A stretch of 64,000 nucleotides of DNA from a candidate division WOR-3 bacterium (GTDB taxonomy: Bacteria > Hydrothermota > Tepidihabitantia > Tepidihabitantales > Tepidihabitantaceae). Within the stretch, counting starts at the first letter, position 1. Each line of letters starts with the position of its first letter. Below the pieces are notes generated by a model, which searched no databases, was not told the DNA's origin, and worked only from the letters and a program-made list of their open reading frames with translations. This document shows positions 1 through 61,505 of the stretch, one piece after another. Made by a program: the position numbers and the translations under genes. The stretch is from contig JBDRTY010000001.1 of the NCBI GenBank assembly GCA_039801085.1, positions 310,852 to 374,851 on the forward strand. The letters run 5' to 3'.

Positions 1-5
1 CATCC

Positions 6-656
6 GTGGGTTATTTCAGTTTTACTGCCAATAATCACTCGGTAGTCTTTTATACCAACTCTGCTGCCTTCAACGGTCAGAGCGCTACCGCCTCCAACCA
101 GCTCCGCTGCGGCACCCTATCCAAGGCAGGTGGAAGCTTTACCATTGACCATCCGCTTGACCCCTACGGCAAGATCCTCAATCACTACTTTATTGAGGGT
201 CCGGAGATGCGCAATCTCTATGATGGTGAGGTTGTGCTGGATGCATCGGGTCGTGCCACTGTCCATCTGCCAGAATACTTCAGCGCCCTGAACCGCAGAC
301 CGCGAATCCAGCTGACCGGTGTCGGGACTTCCAATGTCTATGTTGCTGTGGACATCAGAGGAAATACCTTTGTAATCGGCGGCAAGCCGGGTACCAAGGT
401 CTACTGGCAGGTGACCGGTGAGCGGCAGGATGTCTCGGCTGAGGTGATCCGGCGGCTGATGCCGGTGGAGCAGAAAAAGGCTGGTGAACTTGCCGGCAGG
501 ATGCTGGATGACGAGTTCCTCTCCGGCTGTATGGAGCAGCTGGAGCGCGAAGGCAAGGCGCAGGGTATTGATTTCCGCACTGCTGCGGGCAGACAGCGCT
601 ATGAGCAGATGAAGAATCCGCCGCAACTGGAAAGGAAGATAATGGAGGAGCGATGA
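6..656 (+). CDS. Hypothetical protein. It may continue upstream of the window. Its stop overlaps the next start (ATGA).
   Basis: 216-aa ORF in frame 3 with coding-like composition. No motif I recognise. Confidence 0.4.
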   Translation: MGYFSFTANNHSVVFYTNSAAFNGQSATASNQLRCGTLSKAGGSFTIDHPLDPYGKILNHYFIEGPEMRNLYDGEVVLDASGRATVHLPEYFSALNRRPRIQLTGVGTSNVYVAVDIRGNTFVIGGKPGTKVYWQVTGERQDVSAEVIRRLMPVEQKKAGELAGRMLDDEFLSGCMEQLEREGKAQGIDFRTAAGRQRYEQMKNPPQLERKIMEER

Positions 657-901
657 AACCGTTTATCTCTCTTCTGGGAGTCATCCTGCTGGCTTTGATA
701 GTTTCTGCCCAGCCCTACCGGTGTGACTGGCAGGTGGTGGCAGCAGGTGGCGGTATACTTGCCGGTGATTACCGCTGTGGTGCCACCATCGGTCAGACTG
801 CAACCGGCAGGATGAGCGGAACCAACCTGCTGGCGCTCATCGGCTTCTGGCAGCCGGAGCCGGCAGTCGGGCTGGAGGAAAGACAGCAGTTTGACCAGTA
901 G
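653..901 (+). CDS. Small secreted protein (signal peptide). It ends at a TAG that is in frame with the downstream T9SS C-terminal-domain ORF.
   Basis: N-terminal hydrophobic signal MKPFISLLGVILLALIVSAQ. Same frame (frame 2) as 905..1192. Confidence 0.4.
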   Translation: MKPFISLLGVILLALIVSAQPYRCDWQVVAAGGGILAGDYRCGATIGQTATGRMSGTNLLALIGFWQPEPAVGLEERQQFDQ

Positions 902-904
902 GCG

Positions 905-1192
905 GTGTCGCCGCTGGTGACCCGGCTTTACCAGCCCGCACCCAACCCGTTTCTCCGCCGGACGGTCGTCTGCTACTCGCTGGCACAGGCGGGTCCGGTC
1001 AGTCTGCAGATCCTTGACCTTTCCGGCAGAGTGGTGCGGACACTGGTGAACGCAATCCAGAAGCCGGGTGTTTACCGTCTGGTCTGGGATGGACAGGACG
1101 GTTCAGGCAGAGCGCTTGCCGGCGGGGTCTACTTCTGCCAGTTCTGTGCCGGTGCTCACCGCCAGACGGTGAAACTGCTCTTCGGACGCTGA
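905..1192 (+). CDS. T9SS (Por secretion) C-terminal sorting domain, probably the C-terminus of the 653..901 gene
   Basis: Sequence PNPF...VSLQILDLSGRVVRTL...GVYRLVWDGQD..GGVYFCQF...KLLF matches the canonical ~80-aa T9SS CTD pattern. It is separated from the upstream ORF only by TAG plus one codon, in the same frame. Confidence 0.5.
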   Translation: MSPLVTRLYQPAPNPFLRRTVVCYSLAQAGPVSLQILDLSGRVVRTLVNAIQKPGVYRLVWDGQDGSGRALAGGVYFCQFCAGAHRQTVKLLFGR

Positions 1193-1202
1193 GACTGAGT
1201 CA

Positions 1203-1244
1203 GAAGCTCAAGCGGGGCGGGGAGAACCCGTCCCGCTTTTTTAT
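1203..1244 (+). terminator. Rho-independent terminator (GC hairpin followed by a T-run)
   Basis: agcggggcgggg-agaa-cccgtcccgct followed by ttttttat. Confidence 0.5.
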
Positions 1245-1296
1245 AAATACTTAAAAGGTGAATTTTAATACTAAGTTGATTTTCTGCAATGACTTA

Positions 1297-1321
1297 GGGG
1301 CTAGCCCCGGGCATGCCCCTC
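1297..1321. repeat. GC-rich palindromic intergenic element (GGGGCTAGCCCC + GGGCATGCCC). A second copy lies at 15022..15050.
   Basis: The 19-nt string agccccgggcatgcccctc is identical at 1303..1321 and 15031..15049. Both sit at gene ends. Confidence 0.5.
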
Positions 1322-1397
1322 AGCGGCTGGGGAGAGGGGATCCGGCTGAAAATCTGGTATGAGGTACTGTCGAGATTGCCGGTCCAAAGCAGGGATA

Positions 1398-1988
1398 TCA
1401 GCGGGCAGAGATGCCGGCACGCTGTGCCGATTTGACGAGGATGTCATATTCAATATTGACCTTTGACCCCGGACGCAGGTGCTTCAGGGTGGTGTTTTCC
1501 CAGGTGTGGGTGATGATGCTCGCGGTGAATTCGTTCTGCCGGCAGTGCTGGATCGTCAGGCTGACCCCGTCAACCGCAATTGAGCCCTTTTCCACCAGAT
1601 ACCGGCGGTTTTCGGGCCGGACCGCAATCACCAGCCGGATGGCACCGGTGCCACGCTGAACGGACTTTACCCTTGCGACTTCGTCAATATGGCCAAGCAG
1701 GATATGACCGCCGAGCCGGTCGCCAGCCTTAAGCGCCCGCTCCAGGTTGACCTGCGCTCCAGTCCGCAGACTGCCCAGTGTGGTCTGGCTGAGTGTCGGA
1801 GCGGTCGCCTCGGTTTCAAAACCGGTTGCCGTTACTCTGGTTACGGTGAGGCAGCAGCCGTTGACCGCAACACTTTCACCCGGTTTGAGTTCGGCGGCAA
1901 AGGGTGCAGTGATCTCAAGATAACGGCGGGCACCGGCAGCGGTAATCCGGCGGACCTTACCCTGCGCCTCAACTAAACCGGTAAACAT
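1398..1988 (-). CDS. ribE: Riboflavin synthase alpha subunit
   Basis: MFTGLVE start and NGCCLTV motif, with the two-repeat lumazine-binding architecture. The canonical start is the internal M. It overlaps ribD by ~20 nt. Confidence 0.8.
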   Translation of the reverse strand: MFTGLVEAQGKVRRITAAGARRYLEITAPFAAELKPGESVAVNGCCLTVTRVTATGFETEATAPTLSQTTLGSLRTGAQVNLERALKAGDRLGGHILLGHIDEVARVKSVQRGTGAIRLVIAVRPENRRYLVEKGSIAVDGVSLTIQHCRQNEFTASIITHTWENTTLKHLRPGSKVNIEYDILVKSAQRAGISAR

Positions 1989-3069
1989 AACCCTCGGTAA
2001 GGATGTCATCACCCAGTTCAACATGGCGGACATCGCGCAGGGTGATGGCAGTATTCAGGCTGCGCGGTCTGAGCCCGGCGCTGAACAGTTTTCCCGGTCC
2101 AAGTATCCTCGGTGCCTGAAAGATATACGCCTTGTCCACAACCCCGGCCTCCAGGGCAGAGGAGGCGACGGTCGCTCCCCCTTCAATCAGGACCGAGGCG
2201 ATCTGCCGGTGGTAAAGCTCATTTAATATGTCCTGCCAGTTCAGCCGGTTCCGGCGGTCGAGCCGGACCCGGACAACCTCCGCACCTTTGCCTTCGAGCA
2301 TCCGGATCCGGTTCTGCTGCCGGCAGGCAGTGAAGACCAGCACCGGTCCGGGTTCGGCAAAGAGCCGACTGTCAGGCGGAATCCGGAGGCTGGAGTCCAG
2401 AACGATCCGGTGGAGCCGTTTTTCGCCGTTCAGCCGGCAGGTGAGGCGCGGATTGTCCTTGATTACCGTATTGACCCCGACCAGGACCGCATCTGCCATC
2501 AGGCGCAGAAACTGCCCCACCGCCCGCGCCCGTTCGCCGGTGATCCACTGCGATTCGCCTTCATCGGTTGCCATCATGCCGTCCAGGGTCGCTGCCACCT
2601 TGAGCATGACGAAGGGGCGGTGTTCGCTCATATAGGTGATATAGGCTTCGTTGAGCCGGCGTGCCGCCTTTGCCAGCAGTCCGACCTCAACCGTAATTCC
2701 CTGACGGCGCAGACAGCGGACACCGGCACCGTTGACCTTCGGGTTCGGGTCAAGCATGGCGGCAATCACTTTTCTGATGCCGGCACGGAGCAGGGCATCG
2801 GTGCAGGCAGGGGTTTTGCCCTCAAAACAGCAGGGTTCCATTGTAACATAGAGAGTTGCGCCTTTTGCCCTTGAGCCGGCAGCCCGCAGCGCTTCCACCT
2901 CCGCATGGGCAGAGCCGAACCGGCGGTGATAACCCCGGCCGACAATTTTACCCTCCTTTACCAGCACCGCACCGACCATCGGGTTGGGGGAGACCAGACC
3001 GCAGCCCTGAAACGCCAGCTCCAGCGCCTCAAGCATGAAACGGCGGTCGGCTTCAGTCCAGCGGGGCAT
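1969..3069 (-). CDS. ribD: Bifunctional riboflavin biosynthesis protein RibD (pyrimidine deaminase/reductase)
   Basis: HAEVEAL and MEPC..C zinc-binding deaminase motifs, followed by a C-terminal reductase domain. Confidence 0.85.
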   Translation of the reverse strand: MPRWTEADRRFMLEALELAFQGCGLVSPNPMVGAVLVKEGKIVGRGYHRRFGSAHAEVEALRAAGSRAKGATLYVTMEPCCFEGKTPACTDALLRAGIRKVIAAMLDPNPKVNGAGVRCLRRQGITVEVGLLAKAARRLNEAYITYMSEHRPFVMLKVAATLDGMMATDEGESQWITGERARAVGQFLRLMADAVLVGVNTVIKDNPRLTCRLNGEKRLHRIVLDSSLRIPPDSRLFAEPGPVLVFTACRQQNRIRMLEGKGAEVVRVRLDRRNRLNWQDILNELYHRQIASVLIEGGATVASSALEAGVVDKAYIFQAPRILGPGKLFSAGLRPRSLNTAITLRDVRHVELGDDILTEGYVYRFS

Positions 3070-3074
3070 AAACT

Positions 3075-3368
3075 TTACCGATAGTCAATCTGGAAGTCGT
3101 CGTATTCGTGCAGGTATTCGCCCCACTCCAACTTGACATTTTCCACAATCGCCCCCGGCGGTCCCTGATGCAGTTTTGCCACCAGTTTTTCCAGCTTTTC
3201 CCGTTCGCCTTCGGCATTGACCTCAACCCTGCCGTCAGGCAGGTTGCGCACCCGTCCGGTCAGACCGAGCGTCCGCGCCTCCTTCAGGACAAACATCCGG
3301 AAGAAGACCCCCTGAACCCTGCCGGCGACATAGGCGGAAAGTGAAGCCTTGTTTCCCGTTGCGCTCAT
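3075..3368 (-). CDS. acyP: Acylphosphatase
   Basis: VQGVFFR...GLTGRVRNLPDGRVEV signature. 97 aa. Confidence 0.75.
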   Translation of the reverse strand: MSATGNKASLSAYVAGRVQGVFFRMFVLKEARTLGLTGRVRNLPDGRVEVNAEGEREKLEKLVAKLHQGPPGAIVENVKLEWGEYLHEYDDFQIDYR

Positions 3369-3452
3369 GATTCAAGCATAGGTAAAAACTGCCGGTTGTC
3401 AATAAAGGGCAGTCCTGTTTTACCCGGAGGATTTTTCTGATAGAATATTCCT

Positions 3453-3872
3453 GTGAGCACGGGTAAGAACCGATGGTGGCGGCTGGTGGCGGTTTTGCTC
3501 CTGGTCATTGCCGGCAGTGTTCTGGTGATCCTGCCGCACTGGCTGCGGTTCGGCAGGAGAGCAGTAACACCGCTTGTGCTCCAGGGCAGGGGCAGACTGC
3601 CCGGCGGTCCGGCACCGGACACCCTGCTTCTGCTTTACCGGCTGTCACTGGTGTCGGATCCGGAGCTGGGTTCTGACATCTTCCGGCTCGGGCTGGTGGA
3701 GAGTCTGGATTTCGATACGCTGGGGAATGTCCGGGTGGTGCTGGGACTGACAACGCCCTACTGCCCGTTTATTGAGCCGCTGGGCAGGGCGGTGCTCGAG
3801 ACGCTGGTGAATACACCCGGAATCAACGGTGTGACGGTCAGGGTTGACCCGCAAATCCGGGTGCGGCGATGA
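3453..3872 (+). CDS. DUF59/MIP18-family Fe-S cluster assembly-like protein with an N-terminal TM segment
   Basis: C-terminal LGLTTPYCPF...V.V.P motif typical of the DUF59 (SufT/PaaD-like) family. Confidence 0.5.
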   Translation: MSTGKNRWWRLVAVLLLVIAGSVLVILPHWLRFGRRAVTPLVLQGRGRLPGGPAPDTLLLLYRLSLVSDPELGSDIFRLGLVESLDFDTLGNVRVVLGLTTPYCPFIEPLGRAVLETLVNTPGINGVTVRVDPQIRVRR

Positions 3873-4507
3873 GTCCCGGGCTTTTCGTCCGGGCGGTAAT
3901 GCTCGGTCTGTCTGCCGGCACATCCTGTCTCGGTTTCTGTCTGCCGGTGGTGCTGCCGGTGCTTGCCGGTTCGGACCGGGCCGGTTTTTATCCGGCAGCG
4001 GTCCGGCTGTTATCATTTCTGGCGGGCAGGCTGGTCGCCTATCTCCTTTTCGGTATTCTTGCCGGTCTTGCCGGCGCCCGGCTGAGCGGACCTGTTTTCC
4101 TGCGGACAGCAGCACTGCCGGTTATCTATCTCCTGCTGGGCGGATTGATGATAATTTACGGCATTACCGTCTTTGATCCGTTCACCCGGCTCAGGTTCTG
4201 CCGGCTGATTCAGCCCCAGCTCAATTCGGGCCGGTTTCCTTTTCTCCTCGGGCTGCTGGCAGGGGCAAGTCCCTGTCCGCCGTTTCTGCTCGCACTGGCA
4301 ACTGTTCTTGATTACGCCGGCGTGCTCAGCGGGGCGCTGTTCTTTCTGGTTTTCTTTCTGGCGACCTCGGTCTACTTTCTACCGCTGTTATTTGCCGGTT
4401 TTCTTGTCCGTTGGGATCCGCCCCGGAGCGCTGCCCGCATCGTGGCGGTGGTTACCGGATTTTACTTCGTGGTGCTCGCATTGCGCACACTGTTGAGCGT
4501 ATTTTGA
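3869..4507 (+). CDS. Polytopic membrane protein, DsbD/CcdA-like (thiol-disulfide transporter family) candidate
   Basis: About six hydrophobic helices, with Cys in SCLGFCLP and GASPCPPF motifs. Start overlaps the upstream gene (ATGA). Confidence 0.4.
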   Translation: MSPGLFVRAVMLGLSAGTSCLGFCLPVVLPVLAGSDRAGFYPAAVRLLSFLAGRLVAYLLFGILAGLAGARLSGPVFLRTAALPVIYLLLGGLMIIYGITVFDPFTRLRFCRLIQPQLNSGRFPFLLGLLAGASPCPPFLLALATVLDYAGVLSGALFFLVFFLATSVYFLPLLFAGFLVRWDPPRSAARIVAVVTGFYFVVLALRTLLSVF

Positions 4508-4610
4508 GTCCATTTCTCAGTTGCGTGAATTTATTTGACAAGAGAGAGAGAGAGTATAATTAAAATTAAGACGCAGCCGGATGCCAGCCCCGGCTGTGAA
4601 AGGAGATGCG

Positions 4611-4772
4611 ATGTTTGCAAGCTGGAAGGCGCTGATTGTCGCAACGGCATTCAGCGTGACTGTCATCGGGATTGCGTTTGCTGATGACAATCCCGACTCC
4701 GAAGGGTTGTGGCTATTTACCATGCAAAATGGTATGTGTGCTAACCGATGCTCAGTTTTGTCGCCTATGTAA
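4611..4772 (+). CDS. Small secreted/TM peptide (hypothetical)
   Basis: AAAGGAG lies 6 nt upstream of the ATG. Hydrophobic N-terminus. Sits in the AT-rich segment. Confidence 0.25.
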   Translation: MFASWKALIVATAFSVTVIGIAFADDNPDSEGLWLFTMQNGMCANRCSVLSPM

Positions 4773-5095
4773 GCATCATTACGACCAATGAACCGGCAGC
4801 CCGCTATGCTGCGGGTTATACCGGACCCGGGGGATTGTGCGACTTTCCGCCTTATTACTGGAGATGCAAATTCAGCCGTTTTGGACCGAATGGCAGTTAT
4901 TACATTCCGCGCGATTCCCGGTATCGCTGGCGGTTTTATGCCAAGCGGCAGGACCAGCTTACACAGCGATGGTATTACAGTGACTGGAGCAAAGAGATGG
5001 AATATTCTGAAGTCCGGCTGTTTGATGCTGATACTTTGAATATCTACCGCGACCGGCCGCCCGAGCCCATTCCGCCCTTCAGCTCTGAAGAGTAG
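4748..5095 (+). CDS. Hypothetical W/Y/R-rich small protein
   Basis: 115-aa ORF directly upstream of the 5107 gene. The competing 208-aa minus-strand ORF looks non-coding. Confidence 0.25.
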   Translation: MLSFVAYVSIITTNEPAARYAAGYTGPGGLCDFPPYYWRCKFSRFGPNGSYYIPRDSRYRWRFYAKRQDQLTQRWYYSDWSKEMEYSEVRLFDADTLNIYRDRPPEPIPPFSSEE

Positions 5096-5106
5096 ACTAA
5101 GGGAAG

Positions 5107-6675
5107 ATGCAGAGCAGGAAGTGGTGCGGACTGCTGATTGCAATCGGTTCTGCCGTGCTGCAACCTGCTCTGCATCCGGGTTATTATGTGTTTGCTCAGG
5201 TTTGGGTCCGAACCTATGACGGTCCTGCTAACGGGATGGATAACTGTTATTCCTTAGCTCTCGATTCCTCAGGCTGTCTATTGTTAACCGGTTATGTGAC
5301 ACTAGTTGATCAGGGAGAAACTGTTCCGGCTTACTGCACGATGAAATACACCGGTAGCGGTGAAAGGCAATGGGTGAAGTTTTTCCCCCGCGGGTTCGGA
5401 TTGACGATTACAGCCGATTCTGAGGGTAATGCGATTGTTGCCGGCGACAGTTTCGTGCTCAAATATTCATCTGAAGGAGAACAGTTATGGGTTCGACATT
5501 GCGGTCCGGCTTTCTGGGGTAGTGACGTTGCCGTGGATACACGAAGAAACGTATATGTGACTGGTTATTATCTGGACACAAGGTATGCAATTACAATAAA
5601 ATATGATGCCAATGGTAATGAGGAGTGGATACGGGTTGATTCTGCCGGAAACTGGTTTGTCAGCATGGCGGTTGATTCACTAAATAATGTTTACTGCGGA
5701 GGATACAGTTACGCCGATGGCAGATGGGCATATCGCATTGTAAAATATAAATCCAGTGGCGAGCGGGAATGGGGGATCAGCGAGGAGTTGTTGAACGGAG
5801 TAATAAATAAAGTAAGACTGAGTGACTGCAGTGATTTATATGTAGTCGGCAGTCTGCTGAATGAATCCGGTCCCTATGCAGCAGCCACGGTCAAGTATGA
5901 CAGTAATGGTGTGAGACAATGGGTAAGATTTTTTGAGGGTCCGGGTTATGATGTGGGGCAGACACTGGCGGTTGACCGGAATGGCAACTGTTATGTCGCG
6001 ATTGGGACTGCCGAAAGGCCGGGGATGGTCACCAATTTTGACATTGTGCTGGTGAAATATGCTGCCGATGGTACTGAAATATGGCAGCGGAGATATACTG
6101 GCTATGGGGGAGATGATTATCCGTTTGCGATCGGTGTCGATGCTCAGAAGAATATCTATGTCTGCGGATACAGCGATAGCCGCCGGAGCGACACGGTTCT
6201 GAGGAGCGACTATCTGTTGCTGAAATATGATTCTCTGGGGAATCTGCAGTGGGAGGCTCGTTATTACGAAGGTGAGAACTGGGGATGGGCATATGACCTT
6301 GAGATTGATCCGACTGAAAGTTGTGTATACACTGCCGGCTATGTAACCAAGAAGAAAAATGGCTGTTTTGATTATGACTGGTGCACAATTAAATATCTGG
6401 CTTCCGGACCCGGCATCACCGAAAACGAGCCGGTGGTAAACAGCACTCCGATCATGGTGGTTTCCAATCCAGCCCGTTCTTGCTTCCGGATTCGTTCCCG
6501 ACTCGGACTTTCAAGTCTCGGGTTCTATGATATCACCGGCAGGCTGATTATGAGTTATCCGGTCAGAGGGCAGGTTGATCTGACCTGCTATTTAATCGGG
6601 GTTTGTCCGGGTGTTTATCTGATTAAAGGAGTTACCGCCGAAGGTGTATTGACCAGTAAGCTGATCGTCCGTTAA
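5107..6675 (+). CDS. SBBP (beta-propeller repeat) protein with a T9SS C-terminal sorting domain
   Basis: Repeated ~50-aa units (VYVTGYY...KYD.NG...W) typical of PF06739. C-terminal CTD ends ...GVYLIKGVTAEGVLTSKLIVR. Signal peptide present. Lower GC than the flanking DNA. Confidence 0.6.
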   Translation: MQSRKWCGLLIAIGSAVLQPALHPGYYVFAQVWVRTYDGPANGMDNCYSLALDSSGCLLLTGYVTLVDQGETVPAYCTMKYTGSGERQWVKFFPRGFGLTITADSEGNAIVAGDSFVLKYSSEGEQLWVRHCGPAFWGSDVAVDTRRNVYVTGYYLDTRYAITIKYDANGNEEWIRVDSAGNWFVSMAVDSLNNVYCGGYSYADGRWAYRIVKYKSSGEREWGISEELLNGVINKVRLSDCSDLYVVGSLLNESGPYAAATVKYDSNGVRQWVRFFEGPGYDVGQTLAVDRNGNCYVAIGTAERPGMVTNFDIVLVKYAADGTEIWQRRYTGYGGDDYPFAIGVDAQKNIYVCGYSDSRRSDTVLRSDYLLLKYDSLGNLQWEARYYEGENWGWAYDLEIDPTESCVYTAGYVTKKKNGCFDYDWCTIKYLASGPGITENEPVVNSTPIMVVSNPARSCFRIRSRLGLSSLGFYDITGRLIMSYPVRGQVDLTCYLIGVCPGVYLIKGVTAEGVLTSKLIVR

Positions 6676-12871: not shown

Positions 12872-12889
12872 GTTTGCAGGAAGGGAGAG

Positions 12890-12960
12890 CTGGGGGACAG
12901 GGATTCGAACCCCGACTAGCTGGTCCAGAGCCAGCCGTCCTACCGTTAGACGATCCCCCA
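12890..12960 (-). tRNA. tRNA-Gln (anticodon CTG)
   Basis: Cloverleaf on the reverse complement: acceptor TGGGGGA/TCCCCCA, T-loop GGTTCGAATCC, anticodon loop CTCTGGA. Confidence 0.7.
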
Positions 12961-35871: not shown

Positions 35872-36190
35872 ATCGTTCAGCGCCGCCCATCGGATTGTTG
35901 ACCAGGGTGGCAAGTGTGAGCAGCTTCATGGTCATAATTACCGTGTGGAGGTAGTAGTCGGTTCTGAAAGGTTGAATCCGCCCGGGATGGTGGTGGATTT
36001 TAATGAACTGAAAGAAGCGGTGGCGCTTATTCTGCCGGACCATAAACTGCTGAATGAAGTTTTCGACTTCAATCCGACCGCGGAAAACCTTGCCCGCTAT
36101 TTTTATGAACAGTTGCAGAGCCGGTTTCCGGTGGTGCGGGTACGGGTCTGGGAAAATGATGAATGCTGGGCTGAGTACGAGCCGGATTAG
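35849..36190 (+). CDS. queD: 6-carboxy-5,6,7,8-tetrahydropterin synthase (6-pyruvoyl-tetrahydropterin synthase family)
   Basis: GGAAAGGAGG RBS. ...SFSAAHRI....KCEQLHGHNYRVEV (Cys-x-x-x-His-Gly-His motif). About 114 aa. Start overlaps the upstream gene's end. Confidence 0.75.
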   Translation: MYLVRVSKSFSAAHRIVDQGGKCEQLHGHNYRVEVVVGSERLNPPGMVVDFNELKEAVALILPDHKLLNEVFDFNPTAENLARYFYEQLQSRFPVVRVRVWENDECWAEYEPD

Positions 36191-51492: not shown

Positions 51493-54333
51493 TCAGCGCA
51501 CAAGAGCAAATCTGGCGATTGACCGTCCAAATGTGGTTTCCAGCACCGCCAGATAGATTCCGGAGCCGGCAGGTTTCCCGGACTCATTCAACCCGTCCCA
51601 GCAGGCATTAATTCCTTCCAGTTCTTCAGAAGCAAAGTATCGTCCCGGAGTCGGCATTCTGGCGGTGTTGAGCTGAACCGTTTTTACCCTGACACCGCTG
51701 GTAGTGTAGATGGTGATCCGGGCGTCCGGAGTGACCCGGCTGAGATTAAGGGCAAAGTAAACCTTCAGGTTTTCCCCGGTAACAAACGGGTTGGGGTAAA
51801 TGAGTGCGATCCGGTCCTGCGGGCTGGGCTGTGTCCTGGGTGATGGCGGGAATCTGCTGAACGCGGAGTCAACACGGGGCACCCCATAACCGAAGGTGCA
51901 GCTTTTCACTGCCCGGCTGGCGGTTGTGTAAAGCGCCACCCGGATTGATTCCGCATTCCATTCGGGGTGTGCCTCCTTGAGCAGGGCACAGCAGCCGGCG
52001 ATCAGGGCGGTGGCACAGGAGGTACCGACGCTGCCTTCAAGGAAGTTTTCCGAATCCGGTGCCGCAACCGCAACGGTATCTGCCAGCGCTACCAGATCGG
52101 GTTTGATTCTGCCGTCAGCGGTCGGTCCGGTACCGGTTCCGCGCCAGGGGGTAAGGTTCTTCTCAACCCCACCGCAGGTGATGACGCCTTCGGCATCGCC
52201 AGGTGCGGTGATATACGGCCGGGGCCAGGGATATTCGGTTGTGTCACGGTTGCCCATCGCGGTGACGATTACCAGCCCGCGGCGTGCTGCCAGCTCGCAG
52301 GCAATTGAGATCGGTGCGGTTCTGCCGTCAAAATGCTCGTCCCGGTACCAGCCCCGATAGCCGAGCGATGTGGAAACAATATCCGCACCGCACTTTTCCG
52401 CCCACTCCAGCGCCTGAATATAGGTATCCTCCTCCATGTTATATTCATATCCCCGGTTGCCGGAAGTCTTGTAATATTCGGTTTTGGCGACAATCAGGTC
52501 GACTCCGGGTGCGATGCCCATCATGGAATAGGGCTGATAACCGGCGATCAGTGAAGCCATTCTGGTGCCGTGATTGGGCTGGTCATAGGAGAACTTCAGT
52601 GTGTCCGAATCTTCCCAGACCGCGATTTCATCACCCCGGCGGAACCAGAGGATGGAACTGTTGTCCGGGGCAGCCACTGGGGAATAGCAGAAACCGAGCG
52701 TATCAACCGGTTCTGTATCACGCCAGCTCATTCCCAAGTCCGGAGTTGTCCGCTGATAGAGCATACCGCCGGATTCGTAAACAAGGGTCAGACCATTGCT
52801 GGTGTGGCTCAGGGTATAATCCCCGAAGGAGCTGGCGGAGTCAATGGTCAGCGGAGAGGACCAGGTGGCGCCGAAGTCCGTTGAGCGGAGCAGATTCAAT
52901 TTTGTCCGGACCGGGTTGCTTTGATCCTGATAAACAAGGAGGCGCAGAGAATCGTGATTTTTTATGGTAAACAGTCTGATGTGTCCGGCACTGCCGGCAA
53001 TCAGTTCTCCATCGGGATTGAAGCTGACACCGCCATCAGTGGAATAAAACTGCCGGACCCGGCCGGTATTTTTCTCCCGGACAAGGAGGTTGATTCTGCC
53101 CTCAGGTCCGGCGCTGAGCTGGGGCTCGGTGAGCGGCTGGTCATGGGTGATTTCGGTATAGAGCAGCCAGTTTGGGGCAGGAGTGGTAATGAGCGCCTTG
53201 CGAAGGGAGATTACGGAATCGCTTTTCAGCCAGGCGGCATAAAGGGTGTCGGCGTAAATTGCCAAACTTGGATGCCTGCCTGTGCCGAGTGTCTGCCGGT
53301 TCTGCCAGCGGTCATTAATGAAATAACCGAGATAACAGGTGGGCGCAGCACCGGGATGCAGATCAACCTCATTAAACGCCAGATAAAATACCGAATCCCG
53401 GCAGTCCAGCTGCAGATTTTCATAAGTGTAGTAATAAGGCCGGGAAACTGCCACCGGCTGCGGCTGGCTCCAGTTTTCTCCCCGGTCAGCAGAAAATGTG
53501 AAGAAGACCGCCCGTGCGGGCAGACCGTAGGTGTAATTGAAACTGTCAGCAACAAAGGCAAGCAGGGTGAGACTGCCGTTGTCGCCCAGTGCCGGGTCCT
53601 TGACCAGACCAAGGTAGCGCAGTCGGGGTATAACTTCAGCTTCTGCTCCTGCATGCCGGATATAAAAATTGTCACCGGACAGAAAGTCATACTGCCGCCA
53701 GATCCGCAGCCGCCGGACCGCCTGGTTCTTGAGCTTCAGCCCGGTGTCAAAGAGCGCCAGTTTCACACCGGTGCCGAACCATCCCTGATAAAAAAGTTTC
53801 GGCACTCCCAGCATCTGCGCCTGATCCCAGGCAGCACCGTAGAACCGGTGGGCATCAGCGGTGTCAAGGGACCGGTAGTTGCGATGTGATTCCGGCTGGG
53901 TAAGCGGGACGGTCAGGTCAAAGGCGGTTTCAGTTTTCCGGGCAACAGGACGGATATCATAAACATAGGGAAGCTGGTAAATTCTCGATACCAGCTCCGG
54001 TGGCATTTCAAAGCTGGCAGCATTCAGCCAGCGGGACACGGTGCGCAGCCGGGCGCCCAGCGCCTCAATTTCCCGAATGTAATCCTGCCGGACCGGCAGG
54101 TCATCAAAGTCAAAGCCGGCAACCGGTTCCCGTGCCCGGCGCTGGAGCTGGGACAGGGATGCGGTCCGGTAGAGGTCAGCAAGCGCCTGCTGATACTGGG
54201 ACTGATTGAATATTCCCTTGTCCGTGAAAAAAACCCAGACCCGGCTGGGGGAGATTTCCGGCGGTGCGGATTTCACCGGAATGCGCACCAGTTCAACTGT
54301 CGCCGGAAGGAAAAGCAGCAGGAAAAGATGCAT
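51493..54333 (-). CDS. S8 subtilisin-family peptidase with a ~400-aa BNR/sialidase-like beta-propeller insertion inside the catalytic domain, and a T9SS C-terminal domain
   Basis: Asp context GVKLALFDTG near residue 190. His (HGTRMASLIAG) and Ser (GTSCATALIAG) only after residue ~600. BNR motifs STDGGVSF and STDFGATWS lie in between. CTD ...GIYLAVLETTFGRSIARFALVR. Confidence 0.6.
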   Translation of the reverse strand: MHLFLLLFLPATVELVRIPVKSAPPEISPSRVWVFFTDKGIFNQSQYQQALADLYRTASLSQLQRRAREPVAGFDFDDLPVRQDYIREIEALGARLRTVSRWLNAASFEMPPELVSRIYQLPYVYDIRPVARKTETAFDLTVPLTQPESHRNYRSLDTADAHRFYGAAWDQAQMLGVPKLFYQGWFGTGVKLALFDTGLKLKNQAVRRLRIWRQYDFLSGDNFYIRHAGAEAEVIPRLRYLGLVKDPALGDNGSLTLLAFVADSFNYTYGLPARAVFFTFSADRGENWSQPQPVAVSRPYYYTYENLQLDCRDSVFYLAFNEVDLHPGAAPTCYLGYFINDRWQNRQTLGTGRHPSLAIYADTLYAAWLKSDSVISLRKALITTPAPNWLLYTEITHDQPLTEPQLSAGPEGRINLLVREKNTGRVRQFYSTDGGVSFNPDGELIAGSAGHIRLFTIKNHDSLRLLVYQDQSNPVRTKLNLLRSTDFGATWSSPLTIDSASSFGDYTLSHTSNGLTLVYESGGMLYQRTTPDLGMSWRDTEPVDTLGFCYSPVAAPDNSSILWFRRGDEIAVWEDSDTLKFSYDQPNHGTRMASLIAGYQPYSMMGIAPGVDLIVAKTEYYKTSGNRGYEYNMEEDTYIQALEWAEKCGADIVSTSLGYRGWYRDEHFDGRTAPISIACELAARRGLVIVTAMGNRDTTEYPWPRPYITAPGDAEGVITCGGVEKNLTPWRGTGTGPTADGRIKPDLVALADTVAVAAPDSENFLEGSVGTSCATALIAGCCALLKEAHPEWNAESIRVALYTTASRAVKSCTFGYGVPRVDSAFSRFPPSPRTQPSPQDRIALIYPNPFVTGENLKVYFALNLSRVTPDARITIYTTSGVRVKTVQLNTARMPTPGRYFASEELEGINACWDGLNESGKPAGSGIYLAVLETTFGRSIARFALVR

Positions 54334-54595: not shown

Positions 54596-54709
54596 GTGCG
54601 ACTCAATTTTTCTTCAGTATAGCAATTTCCCGACCGTTTGTCCACTCTTGCATTGCGGGAATTCGATGGTAATATCTTCGGCGGGAAAATCAAAGAAAGG
54701 AGTAAGTTG

Positions 54710-55711
54710 ATGAGTCAGACCAGGCCAATGAGGAAGATACTGGTGACCGGCGCAGTCGGTCAGATCGGCTCCGAGCTGACGCTGGCGCTCCGTCAGCGCT
54801 ACGGAGCGGAGAATGTGATCGCCACCGGCAGAAAGACCCAGCCGAGCAGGGAGCTCCTGGAGTCCGGGCCATTCTACTTTATCGATGTAGCAAAGCGGGA
54901 GACGATTGAGGAGGTGGTGAGAAAGCACAACATTGACACCATCTTTCACCTGGCGGCGATTCTGTCCGCTGCCGGCGAAAAGAACCCCCAGCTCGCCTGG
55001 GATGTGAATATCAACGGGCTCTACAATGTGCTCGAGGTGGCACGCGAACACAATATGGCGCGGGTGATTGTGCCCAGCTCAATTGCGGTCTTCGGACCTG
55101 AGACCCCGCGCCAGAATACCCCGAACGAGACGATTCTCAAGCCGAGAACAATGTATGGAATCACCAAGGTAGCGGGTGAACTGCTGGGTGATTACTACTT
55201 CCGGCGTTTCGGTCTGGATGTGCGCGGACTGCGCTATCCGGGCATCATCTCCAATGTCACCCTGCCGGGTGGCGGTACCACCGATTATGCAGTTGAGATC
55301 TTCTACGCCGCAATCAAATTCCGGCGCTACAAGTGTTTCCTCCGGGAAGATACCCGGTTGCCGATGATGTACATGCCTGACTGCATCAAGTCAACAATCA
55401 TGCTTGCTGAGGCACCGCTGGAAAAGCTCAAGCACCACTGCGACTTCAATGTCACCGCCATGAGCTTCTCGGCGGGTGAGCTTGCTGCCGAGATCAGAAA
55501 GCACATCCCGGATTTTGAAGTCACCTACGAACCCGATTTCCGTCAGCAGATCGCCGACTCCTGGCCCGAGTCGATTGACGATTCGGCTGCCCGGGAGGAG
55601 TGGGGCTGGAAACCGGATTATGACCTGCCGGCAATGGTTAAGGACATGCTTGAGGTGCTGGGCAGAAGGCATAAGGAGGGGAAACTGGGCTGGCCCCCGG
55701 AAGGGGCATAG
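54710..55711 (+). CDS. NAD-dependent epimerase/dehydratase-family protein, L-threonine 3-dehydrogenase-like (extended SDR)
   Basis: AAGGAG RBS. GAVGQIGSEL Rossmann motif and YGITK catalytic motif. Confidence 0.55.
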   Translation: MSQTRPMRKILVTGAVGQIGSELTLALRQRYGAENVIATGRKTQPSRELLESGPFYFIDVAKRETIEEVVRKHNIDTIFHLAAILSAAGEKNPQLAWDVNINGLYNVLEVAREHNMARVIVPSSIAVFGPETPRQNTPNETILKPRTMYGITKVAGELLGDYYFRRFGLDVRGLRYPGIISNVTLPGGGTTDYAVEIFYAAIKFRRYKCFLREDTRLPMMYMPDCIKSTIMLAEAPLEKLKHHCDFNVTAMSFSAGELAAEIRKHIPDFEVTYEPDFRQQIADSWPESIDDSAAREEWGWKPDYDLPAMVKDMLEVLGRRHKEGKLGWPPEGA

Positions 55712-56494: not shown

Positions 56495-57090
56495 AGACCC
56501 TGCTCGTTGACTGCTACCTCAAGGATGCCGAGTCCCGGCTCGTTTATTACCGGCAGATGATTCAGCCCTGGTCCGAGATTTCTGAGATAAAGCTCGCGGA
56601 GCTGAAACCGGGGCTTGACTTTACTCAATACGATGCGGTGGTGCTCACCGGTTCCCAGTGGATGCTTTCGGAAAGGGATGTGCCCGAACCGGTTAAGGCG
56701 GTGCTCCGCCAGCTGCTCCTGCCGGTGCTCGGCATCTGCTTCGGTCACCAGCTCCTTGCCCGCTCCTTCGGTGCGGAGGTCAAAAGCGGGCCGGAATTCA
56801 TCGACCGGATGGAGCGGATCCGGTTTCAGCCCTGGCGCCTGTTTGCCGGGCTGGCGCCGGAGGCGGAGATGCGGGAGAGCCACCGGGAATATGTCACCCC
56901 GGAATCGCTCGAACGGATGGGCTGGGAGATCGGTGCGGTTTCTTCTTCCTGTCCGGTTGAGGCGATAAGGCATCCCCGGCTCCCGCTCTACGGTGTTCAG
57001 TTCCATCCGGAGCGGTCAGAAATAAATGGCGAAATACTGTTCCGCAACTTCTACGAGATCGTCAAATCAGTCCGCACCGGCCAGGGCTGA
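56491..57090 (+). CDS. Class I glutamine amidotransferase-like protein
   Basis: GICFGHQLL (catalytic Cys) and VQFHPE (His/Glu). Start overlaps the folE2 stop. Confidence 0.6.
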   Translation: MKTLLVDCYLKDAESRLVYYRQMIQPWSEISEIKLAELKPGLDFTQYDAVVLTGSQWMLSERDVPEPVKAVLRQLLLPVLGICFGHQLLARSFGAEVKSGPEFIDRMERIRFQPWRLFAGLAPEAEMRESHREYVTPESLERMGWEIGAVSSSCPVEAIRHPRLPLYGVQFHPERSEINGEILFRNFYEIVKSVRTGQG

Positions 57091-57094
57091 CGCA

Positions 57095-57803
57095 GACACA
57101 GCAAAGAGATTTCTCCGCTCCGGTTGAGATGATCCTTTCTGTCATTCCGAGTGGAGCGAAGCGGAATCGAGGAATCCCTTTTTTCTTCTTCCGTCATTCC
57201 GAGCCTGTTGAGGAATCTCCTTCAAGAGATTTCTCGACTCCGCCCTTCGGGCTCCGCTCGAAATGACCGAAAGGGAAGTCATTCCGCGCCTGTCGAGGAA
57301 TCGCTTTTAAGGGATTTCTCCACTGCGGTCGAAATGACGAAAAGGGAAGTCATTCCGGGCTTGTCGAGGAATCTCTTTTAAGCGATTTCTCCACTCCGCC
57401 TCGCTCTGCTCGGCTCCGGTCGAAATGACCGAAAAAAAATGTGCCTGCGGCTTCGCTCCGGTCGAAATGACCCTTACTTGTCATTCCGGGTGGAGCGAAG
57501 TGGAAGCGGTGAATCTCCTTTTTCTCAGACTGAGAGGGATTTCTCGACTGCGCTCGAAATGACCCAAACAGGTTACTGCGGTCGGATAGACCTCTGCGGG
57601 TCGTTCCATGCCTTTCTTTTATTGTCATTCCGAGTGAAGCGAAGCGGAATCGAGGAATCTCTCTTTTCTTCTTCCGTCATTCCGCGCCTGTCGAGGAATC
57701 TTCTTCAAGAGATTTCTCGACTCCGCCCTTCGGGCTCCGCTCGAAATGACCGTTTTATTATTGTGTCATTCCGGGCGAGGCGTCAGCCGAGTCGAGGAAT
57801 CGG
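57095..57803. repeat. Tandem array (about 9 units) of degenerate imperfect-palindromic repeats (gtcattccg...cgaggaatc...gatttctc...cgaaatgac), 40-80 nt each, separated by ~10-nt a/g-rich linkers
   Basis: Unit starts at 57141, 57193, 57278, 57349, 57480, 57624, 57676, 57765. Each unit's two arms are near-reverse-complements (gtcattYcg / cgRaatgac, cgaggaatc / gatttctcg). Confidence 0.7.
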
Positions 57804-57823
57804 TAAATCAGTGCAAAATGCAA

Positions 57824-57864
57824 AATCTGTCAAGCTGTTGACAGATTCAAATGCTGCTTATAAT
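57824..57864 (+). promoter_or_regulatory. Sigma70-like promoter (TTGACA-N15-TATAAT), with a perfect 10-bp inverted repeat AATCTGTCAA-gctg-TTGACAGATT over the -35. Candidate operator.
   Basis: IR arms at 57824..57833 and 57838..57847. -35 at 57838..57843, -10 at 57859..57864. Confidence 0.5.
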
Positions 57865-57884
57865 TACTGTGAGCCGATGAGTTT

Positions 57885-57909
57885 CTACTCTACTCTACTC
57901 TACTCTACT
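57885..57909 (+). repeat. (CTACT)5 pentanucleotide microsatellite in the 5' leader
   Basis: ctactctactctactctactctact lies ~20 nt downstream of the -10. The paralogous locus has 10 copies. Confidence 0.8.
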
Positions 57910-58056
57910 CTACTCCTTATTACTCCAATATCTTAACCCCTCGGGTGAGGTGCGGGCAGGCAGGCGGTGCTGCTGGCGGCAGTCTGCTGCCAGCGGTTGG
58001 AAGTCAGCAGGCAACCTGATAGATTTAAATCATTAAAAGCGGAAAGGAGGTTGAGG

Positions 58057-59658
58057 ATGAAAAAGGCAAGTTTGTTCAGGTTGCTGATTTTAAGCACCGC
58101 AGTGCTCGCGGGGGCGATGTTAGCACAGGAGTGGGAAAGGCTGGAAGATGTGCCGGTTCCGGTTCAGCGCTGGGCATGTCTGACATATTCCTACAGCGAG
58201 TATGGTTCAAGGTCCTATGACACGGTCTGGGGTGTCTTTCCGGCACCTGCCTACGGCAAAACCTGGTTCCTTTATTACGACTGTGTTGACGGCCACTGGC
58301 ATTATCCCGCTGATTCGGTGATCAACCGGGATATGAAACAGACCGCTTTGACCTTTCAATGGCTGGAAGAGGGAGTTGTTTATCTTGTGGGGCAGACATT
58401 GGACGGAGACAACCTCTTCTGGTATCCGTTGAATGAAGGGCGCTGGCATTCAGAGCCGATAACTGCCTTTGCTCTTGGTCCCCGTCCCGGGCTGGCATAT
58501 AAAGCAAATCCCGGCTACAACCAGCAGCTTGAGCCGATACCGGGCTGGCTTTACTGTCTTGCCGGTGGTGGTCAGCAGTTCTGGCGCTACTGGCTGCCGA
58601 GCAGTTATCCGCCGGTGACGGTGGATGGCATCTACCCGGCTCAGGGTGCCCTGATTGCAGATCAGACACCGGTGTTCATCTGGCAGGAGGAAGGGGCAGC
58701 GATTGAATACCGGCTGGTGGTGGCGACCGATCCACAGTTTAGTAACACGGTGATCAATGTCATCACCACGGTGCCGCAGTATTAGGTGGAGACCAGACTG
58801 GCAAATGGCGACTATTACTGGCAGACCGCATCCCGGAGTGCAGGCAGTGGCTGGAAGACCGGACCGGTGCACAGCTTCCGGCTTCAGGGTGGCTGGGAGC
58901 GGCTGGCAGATATCCCGACGCGGGTTGGTGATGGCGGGGCGCTTGCCTACTGCGGGAAGTTCTTCGGCACATCTTCAGACATCTTCATTGCCTTTGTCGG
59001 GGGCGGCGACACCGTCTGCTACGCCTATGTGGACGAGTATAATCGCTGGGTGCGGCTGTATAGTGAAGAGTATGTGCCTCCGCAGAACATCGGCGCAGCT
59101 CTGAGTGCGCATCGGGGGCTTTATATGGACCGAGGGACTCCTTATGCTATTTGGGGGATTGGTGATAACTATTTTCGATTTTATGAGTGGGGGAGATGGA
59201 CTCAAGGAGCTCCAGCGCTCCCAGAAGATATCGGGCCGGGTGCATCTTTAGCTGTGGGGCGGTACCATTTACAACCTTATGGCGCTTATCTTTACTTCAT
59301 TCCCGGGTCCGATCCAAGAAATGGAACACCAAGAGTCTCCTTCTGGCGAAAGCTGGTCTTTGCTTATGACGGGCAGACAAAGGTACAGAAGTCGGGTGGA
59401 ATGGGTGATGAGGGGTTGTATAGCAATCAGATGATTCTGGCTGGTGGTAAAGGGGTGATAGCTTATGTGCTGGACCGACCGGCGAATGTGCGGATAGCGG
59501 TTTTTGATGCTGCGGGCAGAAGGGTTGCTCTGCCATATGCTGGCAGGCAGGATGGAGGTCACCATCTGGTCCGCTGGCATTTCAAGGGTGCCGGAGCGTA
59601 TTTTGTCCTTGTTGACATTGACGATGAAAGGCATAAATTCAAGGTGGTTGTGCGGTAG
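58057..59658 (+). pseudogene. T9SS-secreted surface protein (paralog of 61698..63545) with an in-frame TAG at 58783..58785 inside a conserved Fn3-like segment
   Basis: GAAAGGAGG RBS. Signal peptide MKKASLFRLLILSTAVLAG is identical to the paralog. ORFs 57967..58785 and 58786..59658 share frame 1. CTD ...GAYFVLVDIDDERHKFKVVVR. Confidence 0.55.
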
Positions 59659-61423: not shown

Positions 61424-61443
61424 TAAATCAGTGCAAATTGCAA

Positions 61444-61485: not shown

Positions 61486-61505
61486 TACTGTGAGCCGATG
61501 AGTTT

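What the first reader, a model, noticed from the sequence alone, without database searches (positions are those of the whole stretch)
653..1192. Second case of an in-frame TAG, separating a signal-peptide ORF from its T9SS C-terminal sorting domain
- 653..901 (signal peptide + ~60 aa) and 905..1192 (complete T9SS CTD) share frame 2, with TAG at 899..901.
- A CTD has no function without an N-terminal secretion signal, and vice versa. The two ORFs are most parsimoniously one gene.
- Two independent in-frame TAGs both fall in T9SS cargo genes in 64 kb. This could reflect a shared mechanism (leaky amber suppression or readthrough) rather than coincidence.
- TAG is not globally reassigned: queD (36188..36190) and the 15195 gene end naturally at TAG.
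Basis: partly seen in the sequence, partly recalled or inferred. Interest (0 to 1): 0.5.

Follow-up and report, generated by a model that had tools for sequence, protein, structure and literature searches.

The report
Nonsense-mutated small secreted-protein gene
One small secreted-protein gene of an uncultured WOR-3 bacterium is cut in two by a single C-to-T change that turns a glutamine codon into a stop, which is an ordinary strain-specific knockout and not a sign of an unusual genetic code.

Summary
ORFs 653..898 and 902..1189 share a frame and are separated only by TAG 899..901. More than 50 WOR-3 proteins of 175-185 aa span both halves, so they were one gene: signal peptide, a ~50-aa conserved domain, a linker and a T9SS C-terminal sorting domain (CTD).

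The stop is a single C>T change. Two conspecific MAGs (97.6-100% identical DNA) and a sister species carry CAG (Gln) there, and every other near-identical protein is intact with Q83.

Nothing supports a shared readthrough or suppression mechanism:
- Eleven window genes end at TAG, including the second split gene itself.
- None of the ~44 full-length copies among 47 family loci in other genomes has an in-frame TAG.
- The window has no tRNA(CUA), and no unusual RNA structure follows either TAG.
- CAG is the commonest one-step precursor of a stop codon in this genome.
- A third exported-protein gene (4611..5095) is broken by a +2 frameshift, so the lesions are not TAG-specific.

An independent per-run assembly (SRR27170999) carries the same TAG, so it is not an assembler artefact. 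Verdict: an ordinary nonsense allele of low interest.

The parts
1..656 (+). 3' end of the upstream partner gene. It is 893 aa in the conspecific locus L001 and looks fibre- or adhesin-like. Its TGA overlaps the ATG of the small gene (ATGA).
   Evidence: (weak, sub-threshold UspA1_rep, LbR_Ice_bind and DUF5907 hits). In 32 of 34 family loci a long ORF ends 2-30 nt before the small gene.
644..650 (+). Shine-Dalgarno GGAGGAG, 2 nt upstream of ATG 653.
   Evidence: Read directly from the sequence.
653..898 (+). 5' part of the gene: 82 codons covering the signal peptide (about residues 1-20), the conserved Cys-containing N-domain (PYRCDWQVV..GGG..YRCGATIGQTATG..LLALIGFWQPE) and the linker.
   Evidence: It equals NCBI protein MEO0020822.1 (ABIK48_01420, 82 aa). 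The N-domain has no Pfam or NCBIfam family. It has 155 representative relatives.
899..901 (+). In-frame TAG. Relatives have CAG (Gln83) here, so this is a single C>T transition at position 899.
   Evidence: DNA alignment with L001, L002 and L004, protein alignments, and the same TAG in the Logan contig L056 from run SRR27170999.
902..1192 (+). 3' part of the gene: 96 codons encoding the T9SS type A C-terminal sorting domain (an Ig-like beta-sandwich), then TGA at 1190..1192.
   Evidence: PF13860 at E 2.4e-9 and TIGR04183 above its cutoff. The AF2 model of intact P0001 has pLDDT above 90 for residues 85-179. Foldseek hits include PorU, PorZ, the RgpB CTD, the NucA CTD and FlgD. PGAP annotated it separately as the 95-aa MEO0020823.1.
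1210..1238 (+). Intrinsic-terminator-like hairpin (12 pairs) followed by a T run. It marks the end of the transcription unit after the CTD part.
   Evidence: It is conserved in L001.
58057..58782 (+). Second case, 5' part: a DUF4962-like T9SS cargo gene, 242 codons with signal peptide MKKASLFRLLILSTAVLAGA.
   Evidence: It equals MEO0020874.1 (ABIK48_01715, 242 aa).
58783..58785 (+). Second in-frame TAG. L006 has CAG here, and the alignment column is Q in all 11 homologs.
58786..59658 (+). Second case, 3' part with the CTD. It ends at a natural TAG (59656..59658), exactly where all homologs end.
4611..5095 (+). Third broken gene: a signal-peptide protein that is 160 aa in L001. The window has a +2 nt insertion (TT>TTTT at about 4756-4757) that leads to TAA at 4770..4772.
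   Evidence: Intact homologs of 156-163 aa exist.

Best explanation
The locus is a strain-specific loss-of-function allele of one small gene.

What the intact gene encodes: a protein of about 179 aa, found as a multi-copy family in candidate division WOR-3. It has a Sec signal peptide, a ~50-aa conserved Cys-containing domain ending in GFW, a short linker and a T9SS type A C-terminal sorting domain. It is always placed directly after, and probably translationally coupled to, a large fibre-like protein gene.

What happened here: one C>T transition changed codon 83 from CAG (Gln) to TAG, exactly at the linker-CTD boundary.

Inferred consequence (not shown): TAG is read as an ordinary stop. The cell makes an 82-aa precursor, about 62 aa after signal-peptide cleavage. 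This product reaches the periplasm but lacks the CTD, so it cannot be handed to the type IX secretion system. The CTD ORF has no usable ribosome-binding site and no signal peptide, so it is not made as a useful product. At most, basal near-cognate decoding of UAG by tRNA-Gln(CUG) would restore trace amounts of wild-type protein.

The second TAG (58783) arose the same way. Together with a frameshifted third gene, it shows that this strain has accumulated knockouts in dispensable exported or surface proteins.
For: Shown:
- More than 50 continuous homologs span the stop.
- Conspecific L001 (97.6-100% identical over window 1..5906) and sister-species loci L002 and L004 have CAG, with identical flanking sequence.
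- The six full-length members of the 90% protein cluster (177-179 aa) are intact with Q83. The window's own 82-aa and 95-aa halves are deposited as separate CDSs on a 934,845-bp contig.
- The same TAG appears in an independent Logan assembly of SRR27170999, 100% identical over 568 nt.
- The second site is CAG in L006, and Q in all 11 homologs.
- The SNP spectrum against relatives is symmetric, with no excess of C>T.
- TAG ends 11 genes in the window. Three of three checked are conserved as TAG in L006, and the second split gene ends at TAG where all homologs end.
- A non-TAG lesion (+2 frameshift) breaks a third exported-protein gene in a stretch otherwise 100% identical to L001.
- In another MAG (ABIK22) the ortholog of the second gene appears split into 186 + 335 aa by an apparent frameshift at a different place. 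A family member in GCA_037481955.1 carries apparently two frameshifts in its CTD.
- CAG>TAG is the largest single class (about 41%) of transition-derived nonsense targets in this codon usage.
- The terminator lies after the TGA, not after the TAG.
Against: - No read pileup or expression data are available, so allele frequency and actual termination at this TAG are inferred.
- The Logan contig may derive from the same reads as the MAG. It excludes an assembler or polishing artefact but not a systematic sequencing error.
- Both TAGs replace Gln. That is also what a supE-like Gln-inserting suppressor would tolerate.
- The DNA downstream of the TAG shows no decay: it is identical to L001 from about position 987 to 1252. 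The lesion is therefore recent, or the downstream part is still under selection.
- Only 64 kb of the genome could be searched for suppressor tRNAs.
Confidence: 0.85

Rival explanations
1. Sequencing or consensus error: the organism really has CAG at 899 (and at 58783), and the T is an artefact of sequencing, polishing or strain mixing in the MAG consensus.
For: This is a MAG. Related MAGs have obvious assembly breaks of their own: L001 has ribD split at an apparent assembly junction and L006 has the epimerase gene split. All other deposited alleles carry Q. The Logan contig breaks at window position 733, inside a strain-variable patch, which suggests co-occurring strains.
Against: An independent per-run assembly made by a different pipeline (Logan, SRR27170999) reproduces the TAG and 568 nt around it exactly. 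The window shows no excess of C>T over T>C relative to its relatives. All three gene-breaking lesions hit exported-protein genes and none of the ~45 other genes. Selection would produce that pattern; random error would not.
Confidence: 0.07
2. Functional amber suppression or leaky readthrough: this strain decodes UAG as Gln at a useful rate, through a supE-like tRNA-Gln(CUA) or enhanced near-cognate decoding, so both T9SS cargo genes remain expressed as full-length proteins.
For: Both in-frame TAGs replace Gln codons. The sequence downstream of both is undecayed. A tRNA-Gln(CUG), the natural precursor of supE-type suppressors and the near-cognate reader of UAG, lies at 12889..12960. In yeast, tRNA-Gln inserts Gln at premature stops, favoured by flanking Gln codons (PMC13192750), and the first site is preceded by CAG CAG TTT GAC CAG.
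Against: - The window contains no tRNA(CUA).
- TAG is a normal and conserved terminator of 11 genes here. Three are CTD genes, where readthrough would append 60, 11 or 2 residues to a signal that, from general T9SS knowledge, must be C-terminal.
- The in-frame TAG is absent from conspecific MAGs and from ~44 other full-length family members.
- Both TAGs are followed by G, and neither has significant downstream RNA structure (z = -0.29 and +0.26).
- Gln-to-amber is simply the most likely mutational route.
- A frameshift lesion co-occurs, and suppression cannot rescue it.
Confidence: 0.04
3. A neo-functional split: the 82-aa signal-peptide plus N-domain protein is a working gene product without the CTD, and the lesion was selected as a change of localisation (periplasmic or released instead of T9SS-sorted) rather than a plain knockout.
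For: The stop falls exactly at the linker-CTD boundary and leaves the whole conserved N-domain intact. Many relatives of the N-domain are stand-alone proteins of 85-100 aa that end shortly after GFW, with other short tails.
Against: All close relatives and the ~44 full-length WOR-3 paralogs and orthologs retrieved keep the CTD. The lesion is unique to this strain. Other genomes lose the CTD through messy frameshifts typical of decay. No evidence of selection could be obtained.
Confidence: 0.04

Closest known systems
Nonsense (amber) pseudogene alleles segregating within bacterial populations, e.g. inactivated surface or secreted protein genes
   Same: A single transition (CAG>TAG) relative to intact conspecific alleles. 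The lesion is strain-specific, lies in a dispensable exported-protein gene, and is accompanied by frameshift lesions in similar genes.
   Different: Nothing material. The only uncertainty is that the data come from a MAG without read-level allele frequencies.
T9SS type A CTD cargo proteins (TIGR04183 / PF18962 / PF13860-like CTDs; e.g. P. gingivalis RgpB, PorZ, PorU, F. johnsoniae NucA)
   Same: A signal peptide plus a C-terminal Ig-like beta-sandwich that passes the TIGR04183 cutoff and matches the CTDs of PorU, PorZ, RgpB and NucA by fold.
   Different: The passenger is only ~60 aa, has no described family and is poorly predicted as a monomer. The host is candidate division WOR-3, not Bacteroidota. 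In this allele the CTD is cut off from the signal peptide by the stop.
supE-type amber suppression (tRNA-Gln CUA) and TAG-to-Gln recoding as reported for some phages (from my own knowledge, not checked here)
   Same: Both in-frame TAGs sit where relatives have Gln.
   Different: No tRNA(CUA) was found. TAG is used and conserved as a terminator. The in-frame TAGs are not conserved in any relative. The genes are chromosomal and syntenic with intact orthologs.

Membership tests
T9SS type A CTD cargo protein | C-terminal ~70-100-aa sorting domain matching TIGR04183 / PF18962 / PF13860 | tested here: met
   TIGR04183 scores 24.4 bits against a cutoff of 23, and PF13860 gives E 2.4e-9. PF18962 is sub-threshold (16.3 bits against 27). 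The AF2 beta-sandwich has pLDDT above 90, and Foldseek hits include PorU, PorZ, RgpB-CTD and NucA-CTD.
T9SS type A CTD cargo protein | N-terminal Sec signal peptide on the same polypeptide as the CTD | tested here: not met
   A signal-peptide-like N-terminus is present (MKPFISLLGVILLALIVSAQ, with A19 and Q20 invariant in 26 homologs). In this allele TAG 899..901 separates it from the CTD. The feature is met in the ~44 full-length relatives. No signal-peptide predictor was available.
T9SS type A CTD cargo protein | T9SS machinery (SprA/Sov, PorV, PorU, GldKLMN) encoded in the genome | not tested
   Only 64 kb were available and no component was looked for. Seven CTD-bearing genes in the window make a T9SS likely, but this is inference.
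Programmed stop-codon readthrough / natural amber suppression | The in-frame stop is conserved among orthologs | tested here: not met
   CAG in L001, L002, L004 and L006. None of the ~44 full-length copies among 47 GTDB loci has an in-frame TAG. All full-length cluster members have Q83.
Programmed stop-codon readthrough / natural amber suppression | A suppressor tRNA with anticodon CUA | tested here: inconclusive
   None of the 7 tRNAs in the window has it. The rest of the genome could not be fetched.
Programmed stop-codon readthrough / natural amber suppression | TAG is avoided as a terminator, or is backed up, in the same genome | tested here: not met
   TAG is the stop of 9 of 50 long ORFs (8 genuine terminators plus the internal TAG at 58783), and 11 genes checked by hand end at TAG. 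All three checked are conserved as TAG in L006. Readthrough extensions would be 1-60 codons.
Programmed stop-codon readthrough / natural amber suppression | A stimulatory context or downstream RNA structure | tested here: not met
   Folding 120 nt from each TAG gives z = -0.29 and +0.26 against shuffles. The base after each TAG is G.
Pyrrolysine decoding of UAG | pylT/pylS/pylBCD genes, with UAG at positions tolerant of or requiring Pyl | not testable with these tools
The homologous residue is Gln at both sites, which gives no hint of Pyl.
Nonsense-mutation pseudogene allele | Intact orthologs carry a sense codon one substitution away at the site; the lesion is lineage-specific; other lesion types occur in comparable genes | tested here: met
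   (CAG and Q83). (+2 frameshift at 4756). (apparent frameshift in the ABIK22 ortholog). (frameshifted family members L007 and L052).

The most novel reading that the evidence does not exclude
This WOR-3 strain carries a Gln-inserting amber suppressor (a supE-like tRNA-Gln CUA encoded outside the window) or unusually leaky UAG decoding. In that case both CAG>TAG alleles of T9SS cargo genes would still yield full-length protein at a reduced, possibly regulated level, acting as a natural 'dimmer' on surface proteins.
Probability: 0.04. Interest if true: 0.5.

Novelty: already known. Interest (0 to 1): 0.1.

Why it matters
It matters little for biology. It is a textbook nonsense allele in a dispensable exported-protein gene of an uncultured bacterium.

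Its practical value is for annotation. The deposited record calls the two halves as separate CDSs (82 aa 'hypothetical' and 95 aa 'FlgD Ig-like'), and they should be one pseudogene. In-frame TAGs in MAGs should not be read as recoding without checking conspecific genomes.

The by-products are mildly useful. They include a conserved WOR-3 two-gene cassette (fibre-like protein plus a tiny T9SS-sorted partner with an undescribed N-domain). They also include signs that T9SS cargo genes in this population vary through knockouts, mosaic patches and a variable pentanucleotide repeat.

Tried and rejected
- Exact-protein look-ups of the window's 82-aa, 95-aa and RibE products found no positions on record, so the source contig could not be fetched. 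The source was instead identified through cluster members.
- DNA patterns around both TAG sites, with N at the variable base, found nothing in genome contigs (one scan) or metagenome contigs (two scans). No further independent assemblies were obtained that way.
- Damage or error signature: I looked for an excess of C>T in the window against its relatives and found none.
- Dcm-type CCWGG deamination hotspot: the contexts are GCAGG and TCAGG, not CCAGG, so this was rejected by inspection.
- Readthrough-stimulating RNA structure: none.
- Re-initiation at GTG 905: only AGG lies 2 nt upstream, compared with the GGAGGAG before ATG 653, and the product would lack a signal peptide. Rejected by inspection.
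- AF2 did not give a confident model of the N-domain (pLDDT below 50 for residues 20-80), so no fold-based function could be assigned.
- Literature searches for WOR-3 with T9SS or 'type IX secretion' returned nothing. A search on nonsense polymorphisms in MAGs gave nothing relevant.
- PHROGs gave only one short, localised tail-protein hit for the upstream partner.

Full report
**1. The observation**

The sequence is as described. ATG 653 opens an 82-codon frame that ends at TAG 899..901. The same frame then runs 96 more codons to TGA 1190..1192.

- The upstream gene's TGA overlaps ATG 653 (ATGA), and a GGAGGAG Shine-Dalgarno lies at 644..650.
- The only terminator-like hairpin (12 pairs plus a T run) is at 1210..1238. 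It follows the second ORF, not the TAG.
- The second half matches FlgD_ig (PF13860, E 2.4e-9) and passes the curated cutoff of TIGR04183 'T9SS type A sorting domain'.
- The first half has no Pfam or NCBIfam family. It begins with a signal-peptide-like MKPFISLLGVILLALIVSAQ.

**2. One gene or two**

A search with the fused sequence returned 63 proteins. More than 50 are 175-185 aa long and cover both halves. All named hits are from candidate division WOR-3, and the best is P0001 (179 aa, 91% identity, 100% coverage, E 3e-107).

In the alignment the three closest relatives have Gln at the stop column (…QFDQ-Q-AVSPLVTR…). The AF2 model of intact P0001 shows where the stop falls:

- Residues 85-179 form a confident beta-sandwich (pLDDT above 90).
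- Residues 20-80 are not confidently modelled.

The stop at codon 83 therefore sits at the linker-CTD boundary. Foldseek against the PDB returns the CTD-bearing T9SS proteins PorU and PorZ, the RgpB CTD, the NucA CTD bound to the T9SS, and FlgD.

**3. What the TAG is**

The locus encoding P0001 (L001, GCA_039801125.1) is syntenic with the window and 97.6-100% identical to window 1..5906. It is therefore a conspecific genome.

- At the stop, L001 and the sister-species loci L002 and L004 read CAG where the window reads TAG. About 15 identical bases precede the site and about 60 follow it in L001.
- The 90%-identity protein cluster of P0001 has ten members. Six are intact at 177-179 aa with Q83.
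- Two members are the window's own halves: MEO0020822.1 (ABIK48_01420, 82 aa, 'hypothetical protein') and MEO0020823.1 (95 aa). Both lie on a 934,845-bp contig. That contig is the source of the window, and the depositor's pipeline called the halves as separate genes.
- One more member, a 91-aa Logan protein, led to a 1,211-nt contig assembled independently from run SRR27170999 (L056). It is 100% identical to window 733..1300, TAG included.

The T at 899 is therefore present in reads and is not an assembler or polishing artefact. I could not determine whether that run is the one the MAG was built from.

**4. The other TAG**

A scan for same-frame ORF pairs found only one other in-frame TAG on a coding strand, at 58783..58785 in gene 58057..59658.

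- Its fused product matches 535-aa and 523-aa 'DUF4962 domain-containing' WOR-3 proteins. The stop column is Q in all 11 homologs.
- The conspecific locus L006 (GCA_039801105.1, about 98% identical) reads TAT CAG GTG where the window reads TAT TAG GTG.

Both cases are therefore CAG>TAG transitions.

**5. Is a shared readthrough or suppression mechanism needed?**

Every test I could run says no.

- (a) TAG ends 9 of 50 long ORFs in a crude gene set (8 genuine terminators plus the internal TAG at 58783), against TGA 25 and TAA 16.
- (b) Eleven genes checked individually end at TAG. Three TAG terminators compared with L006 are conserved. The second split gene itself ends at TAG 59656, exactly where all homologs end. 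Reading through TAG would append 60, 11 and 2 residues behind the CTDs of three cargo genes. From general knowledge of T9SS, the CTD must be at the C-terminus.
- (c) None of the seven tRNAs in the window has anticodon CUA. tRNA-Gln at 12889..12960 has CTG.
- (d) Of 47 loci of this family in GTDB species representatives (all named ones WOR-3, often several copies per genome), none of the ~44 full-length copies has an in-frame TAG. One is frameshifted (L052). TAG is the usual terminator of the family.
- (e) There is no unusual RNA structure downstream of either TAG (z = -0.29 and +0.26).
- (f) The coincidence is weak:
  - CAG is 29.7 per 1000 codons, against TGG 17.3, CAA 3.9 and CGA 3.3.
  - CAG>TAG is therefore about 41%, and any TAG about 66%, of transition-derived nonsense targets.
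  - Seven genes in the window carry CTDs, an estimated fifth of the coding DNA (my arithmetic).
  - Nonsense alleles are expected to persist only in dispensable genes.
- (g) The SNP spectrum between the window and L001/L006 is symmetric: across the five aligned blocks, 31 C>T against 35 T>C. There is no deamination-like bias.

**6. The lesions are not TAG-specific**

In a stretch otherwise 100% identical to L001 (window 4252..5906), the window has two extra T's at about 4756-4757. They frameshift a signal-peptide protein gene (4611..5095) into TAA 4770..4772. That gene is 160 aa in L001 and has intact homologs of 156-163 aa at 60-66% identity.

Related genomes show the same kind of decay:

- In another MAG of the same series (locus tag ABIK22), the ortholog of the second gene appears split into 186 + 335 aa. 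An apparent frameshift at a different position is the cause.
- In GCA_037481955.1 a member of the small-protein family has apparently two frameshifts inside its CTD.

All three lesions in the window hit exported proteins, and none hits the ~45 other genes. That pattern is expected of real mutations filtered by selection. It is not expected of random sequencing error.

**7. Mechanism (inferred)**

- Termination at UAG gives an 82-aa precursor. This is signal peptide plus the complete N-domain and linker.
- Sec would export it, but without a CTD it cannot engage the T9SS.
- GTG 905 has no credible ribosome-binding site, and its product would lack a signal peptide. The CTD is therefore not produced usefully.
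- Trace restoration by near-cognate tRNA-Gln is conceivable. Gln insertion at premature stops is documented in yeast (PMC13192750). It would be a general property of decoding, not a feature of this locus.
- The downstream DNA is undecayed, which fits a recent mutation.

**8. What the gene is**

- In 32 of 34 family loci with enough flank, a long ORF (400-990 aa within the fetched DNA) ends 2-30 nt before the small gene.
- That partner carries weak UspA1-repeat and DUF5907 signals. In L007 it also carries a Peptidase_S74 intramolecular-chaperone domain, so it looks like a fibre or adhesin. No CTD was detected in it: my CTD profiles missed its 3' part in the window, and none was recorded for the L007 partner.
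- An exhaustive search with the 82-aa ORF found 155 representative relatives. Many are stand-alone 85-100-aa proteins ending shortly after GFW, and 6 of the 13 short ones inspected end in a short hydrophobic YLPLIL(R/K)-like tail.

The N-domain is thus the passenger and the CTD is one of several alternative sorting tags. Its function is unknown. A role as a T9SS-sorted partner or anchor of the upstream fibre protein is speculation.

**9. Comparison and verdict**

The closest known thing is an ordinary amber pseudogene allele segregating in a bacterial population. As a T9SS cargo gene it meets the CTD criterion, but in this allele it fails 'signal peptide and CTD on one polypeptide'. As a readthrough or suppression case it fails every criterion that could be tested. 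Only the genome-wide tRNA search remains open.

Novelty: already known. Interest: low (0.1). The residual novel reading, a Gln-inserting suppressor in this strain, gets about 4%.

Noticed in passing
window 4611..5095: A third broken gene. A signal-peptide protein (160 aa in conspecific L001; homologs of 156-163 aa) is frameshifted by two extra T's at about 4756-4757, in a region otherwise 100% identical to L001. The long minus-strand ORF 4517..5143 that covers it is probably spurious.
   Followed up: yes
window 57884..57915 and 61505..61556; L006 about 5835..5860: A perfect pentanucleotide repeat (TCTAC)n lies about 140 nt upstream of the start of 58057..59658 and about 50 nt upstream of the listed GTG start of its paralog 61608..63545 (both DUF4962/T9SS-CTD genes). 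Copy number is 6.4 and 10.4 in the window and about 5 in the conspecific L006. It is a candidate slipped-strand, phase-variable promoter or leader.
   Followed up: partly
window 57049..58112 and 61061..61753: Long blocks of repeated intergenic DNA (94-99% identical) precede the two DUF4962 paralogs and include their signal-peptide starts. A 53-nt element (TTGTCATTCCGAGTGRAGCGAAGCGGAATCGAGGAATC…) occurs four times. The paralog 61608..63545 seems to be absent from L006, which would mean an insertion or duplication polymorphism.
   Followed up: partly
window 717..884, 59111..59338, 60044..60256, 51575..51850: Dense patches of substitutions against conspecific MAGs, inside T9SS cargo genes that are otherwise 98-100% identical. 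This mosaic pattern suggests recombination or diversifying selection on surface proteins. No DGR-like template was looked for.
   Followed up: no
window 1..1192; loci L009-L054: A conserved WOR-3 two-gene cassette, often present in several copies per genome. It pairs a large fibre- or adhesin-like protein, in which no CTD was detected, with an immediately following ~178-aa protein. In that small protein a ~50-aa undescribed domain (no Pfam or NCBIfam family; AF2 pLDDT below 50) is fused to a T9SS CTD.
   Followed up: partly
proteins P0104, P0124, P0143, P0174, P0182, P0197, P0221: The N-domain (…IDW.V..GGG…Y.L.GTIGQP..G…Y.L..GFW) is widespread as stand-alone small secreted proteins. Six of the 13 short ones inspected end in a hydrophobic YLPLIL(R/K)-like tail. 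That may be a different C-terminal sorting signal.
   Followed up: no
L007 4001..4526 (GCA_037481955.1) and L052: Other members of the small-protein family have lost the CTD frame by frameshifts: apparently two in L007 and one in L052. In L007's genome a second paralog (P0058) carries an identical frameshifted 3' end, which suggests gene conversion of a decayed segment.
   Followed up: partly
NCBI proteins MEO0020822.1, MEO0020823.1 and MEO0020874.1 (locus tags ABIK48_01420 and ABIK48_01715): The public annotation of the source MAG lists the fragments of both interrupted genes as ordinary CDSs rather than as pseudogenes. Related MAGs have their own breaks: ribD is split at an apparent assembly junction in L001, and an epimerase gene is split in L006 where the window has an intact 357-aa ORF at 54638..55711.
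   Followed up: partly
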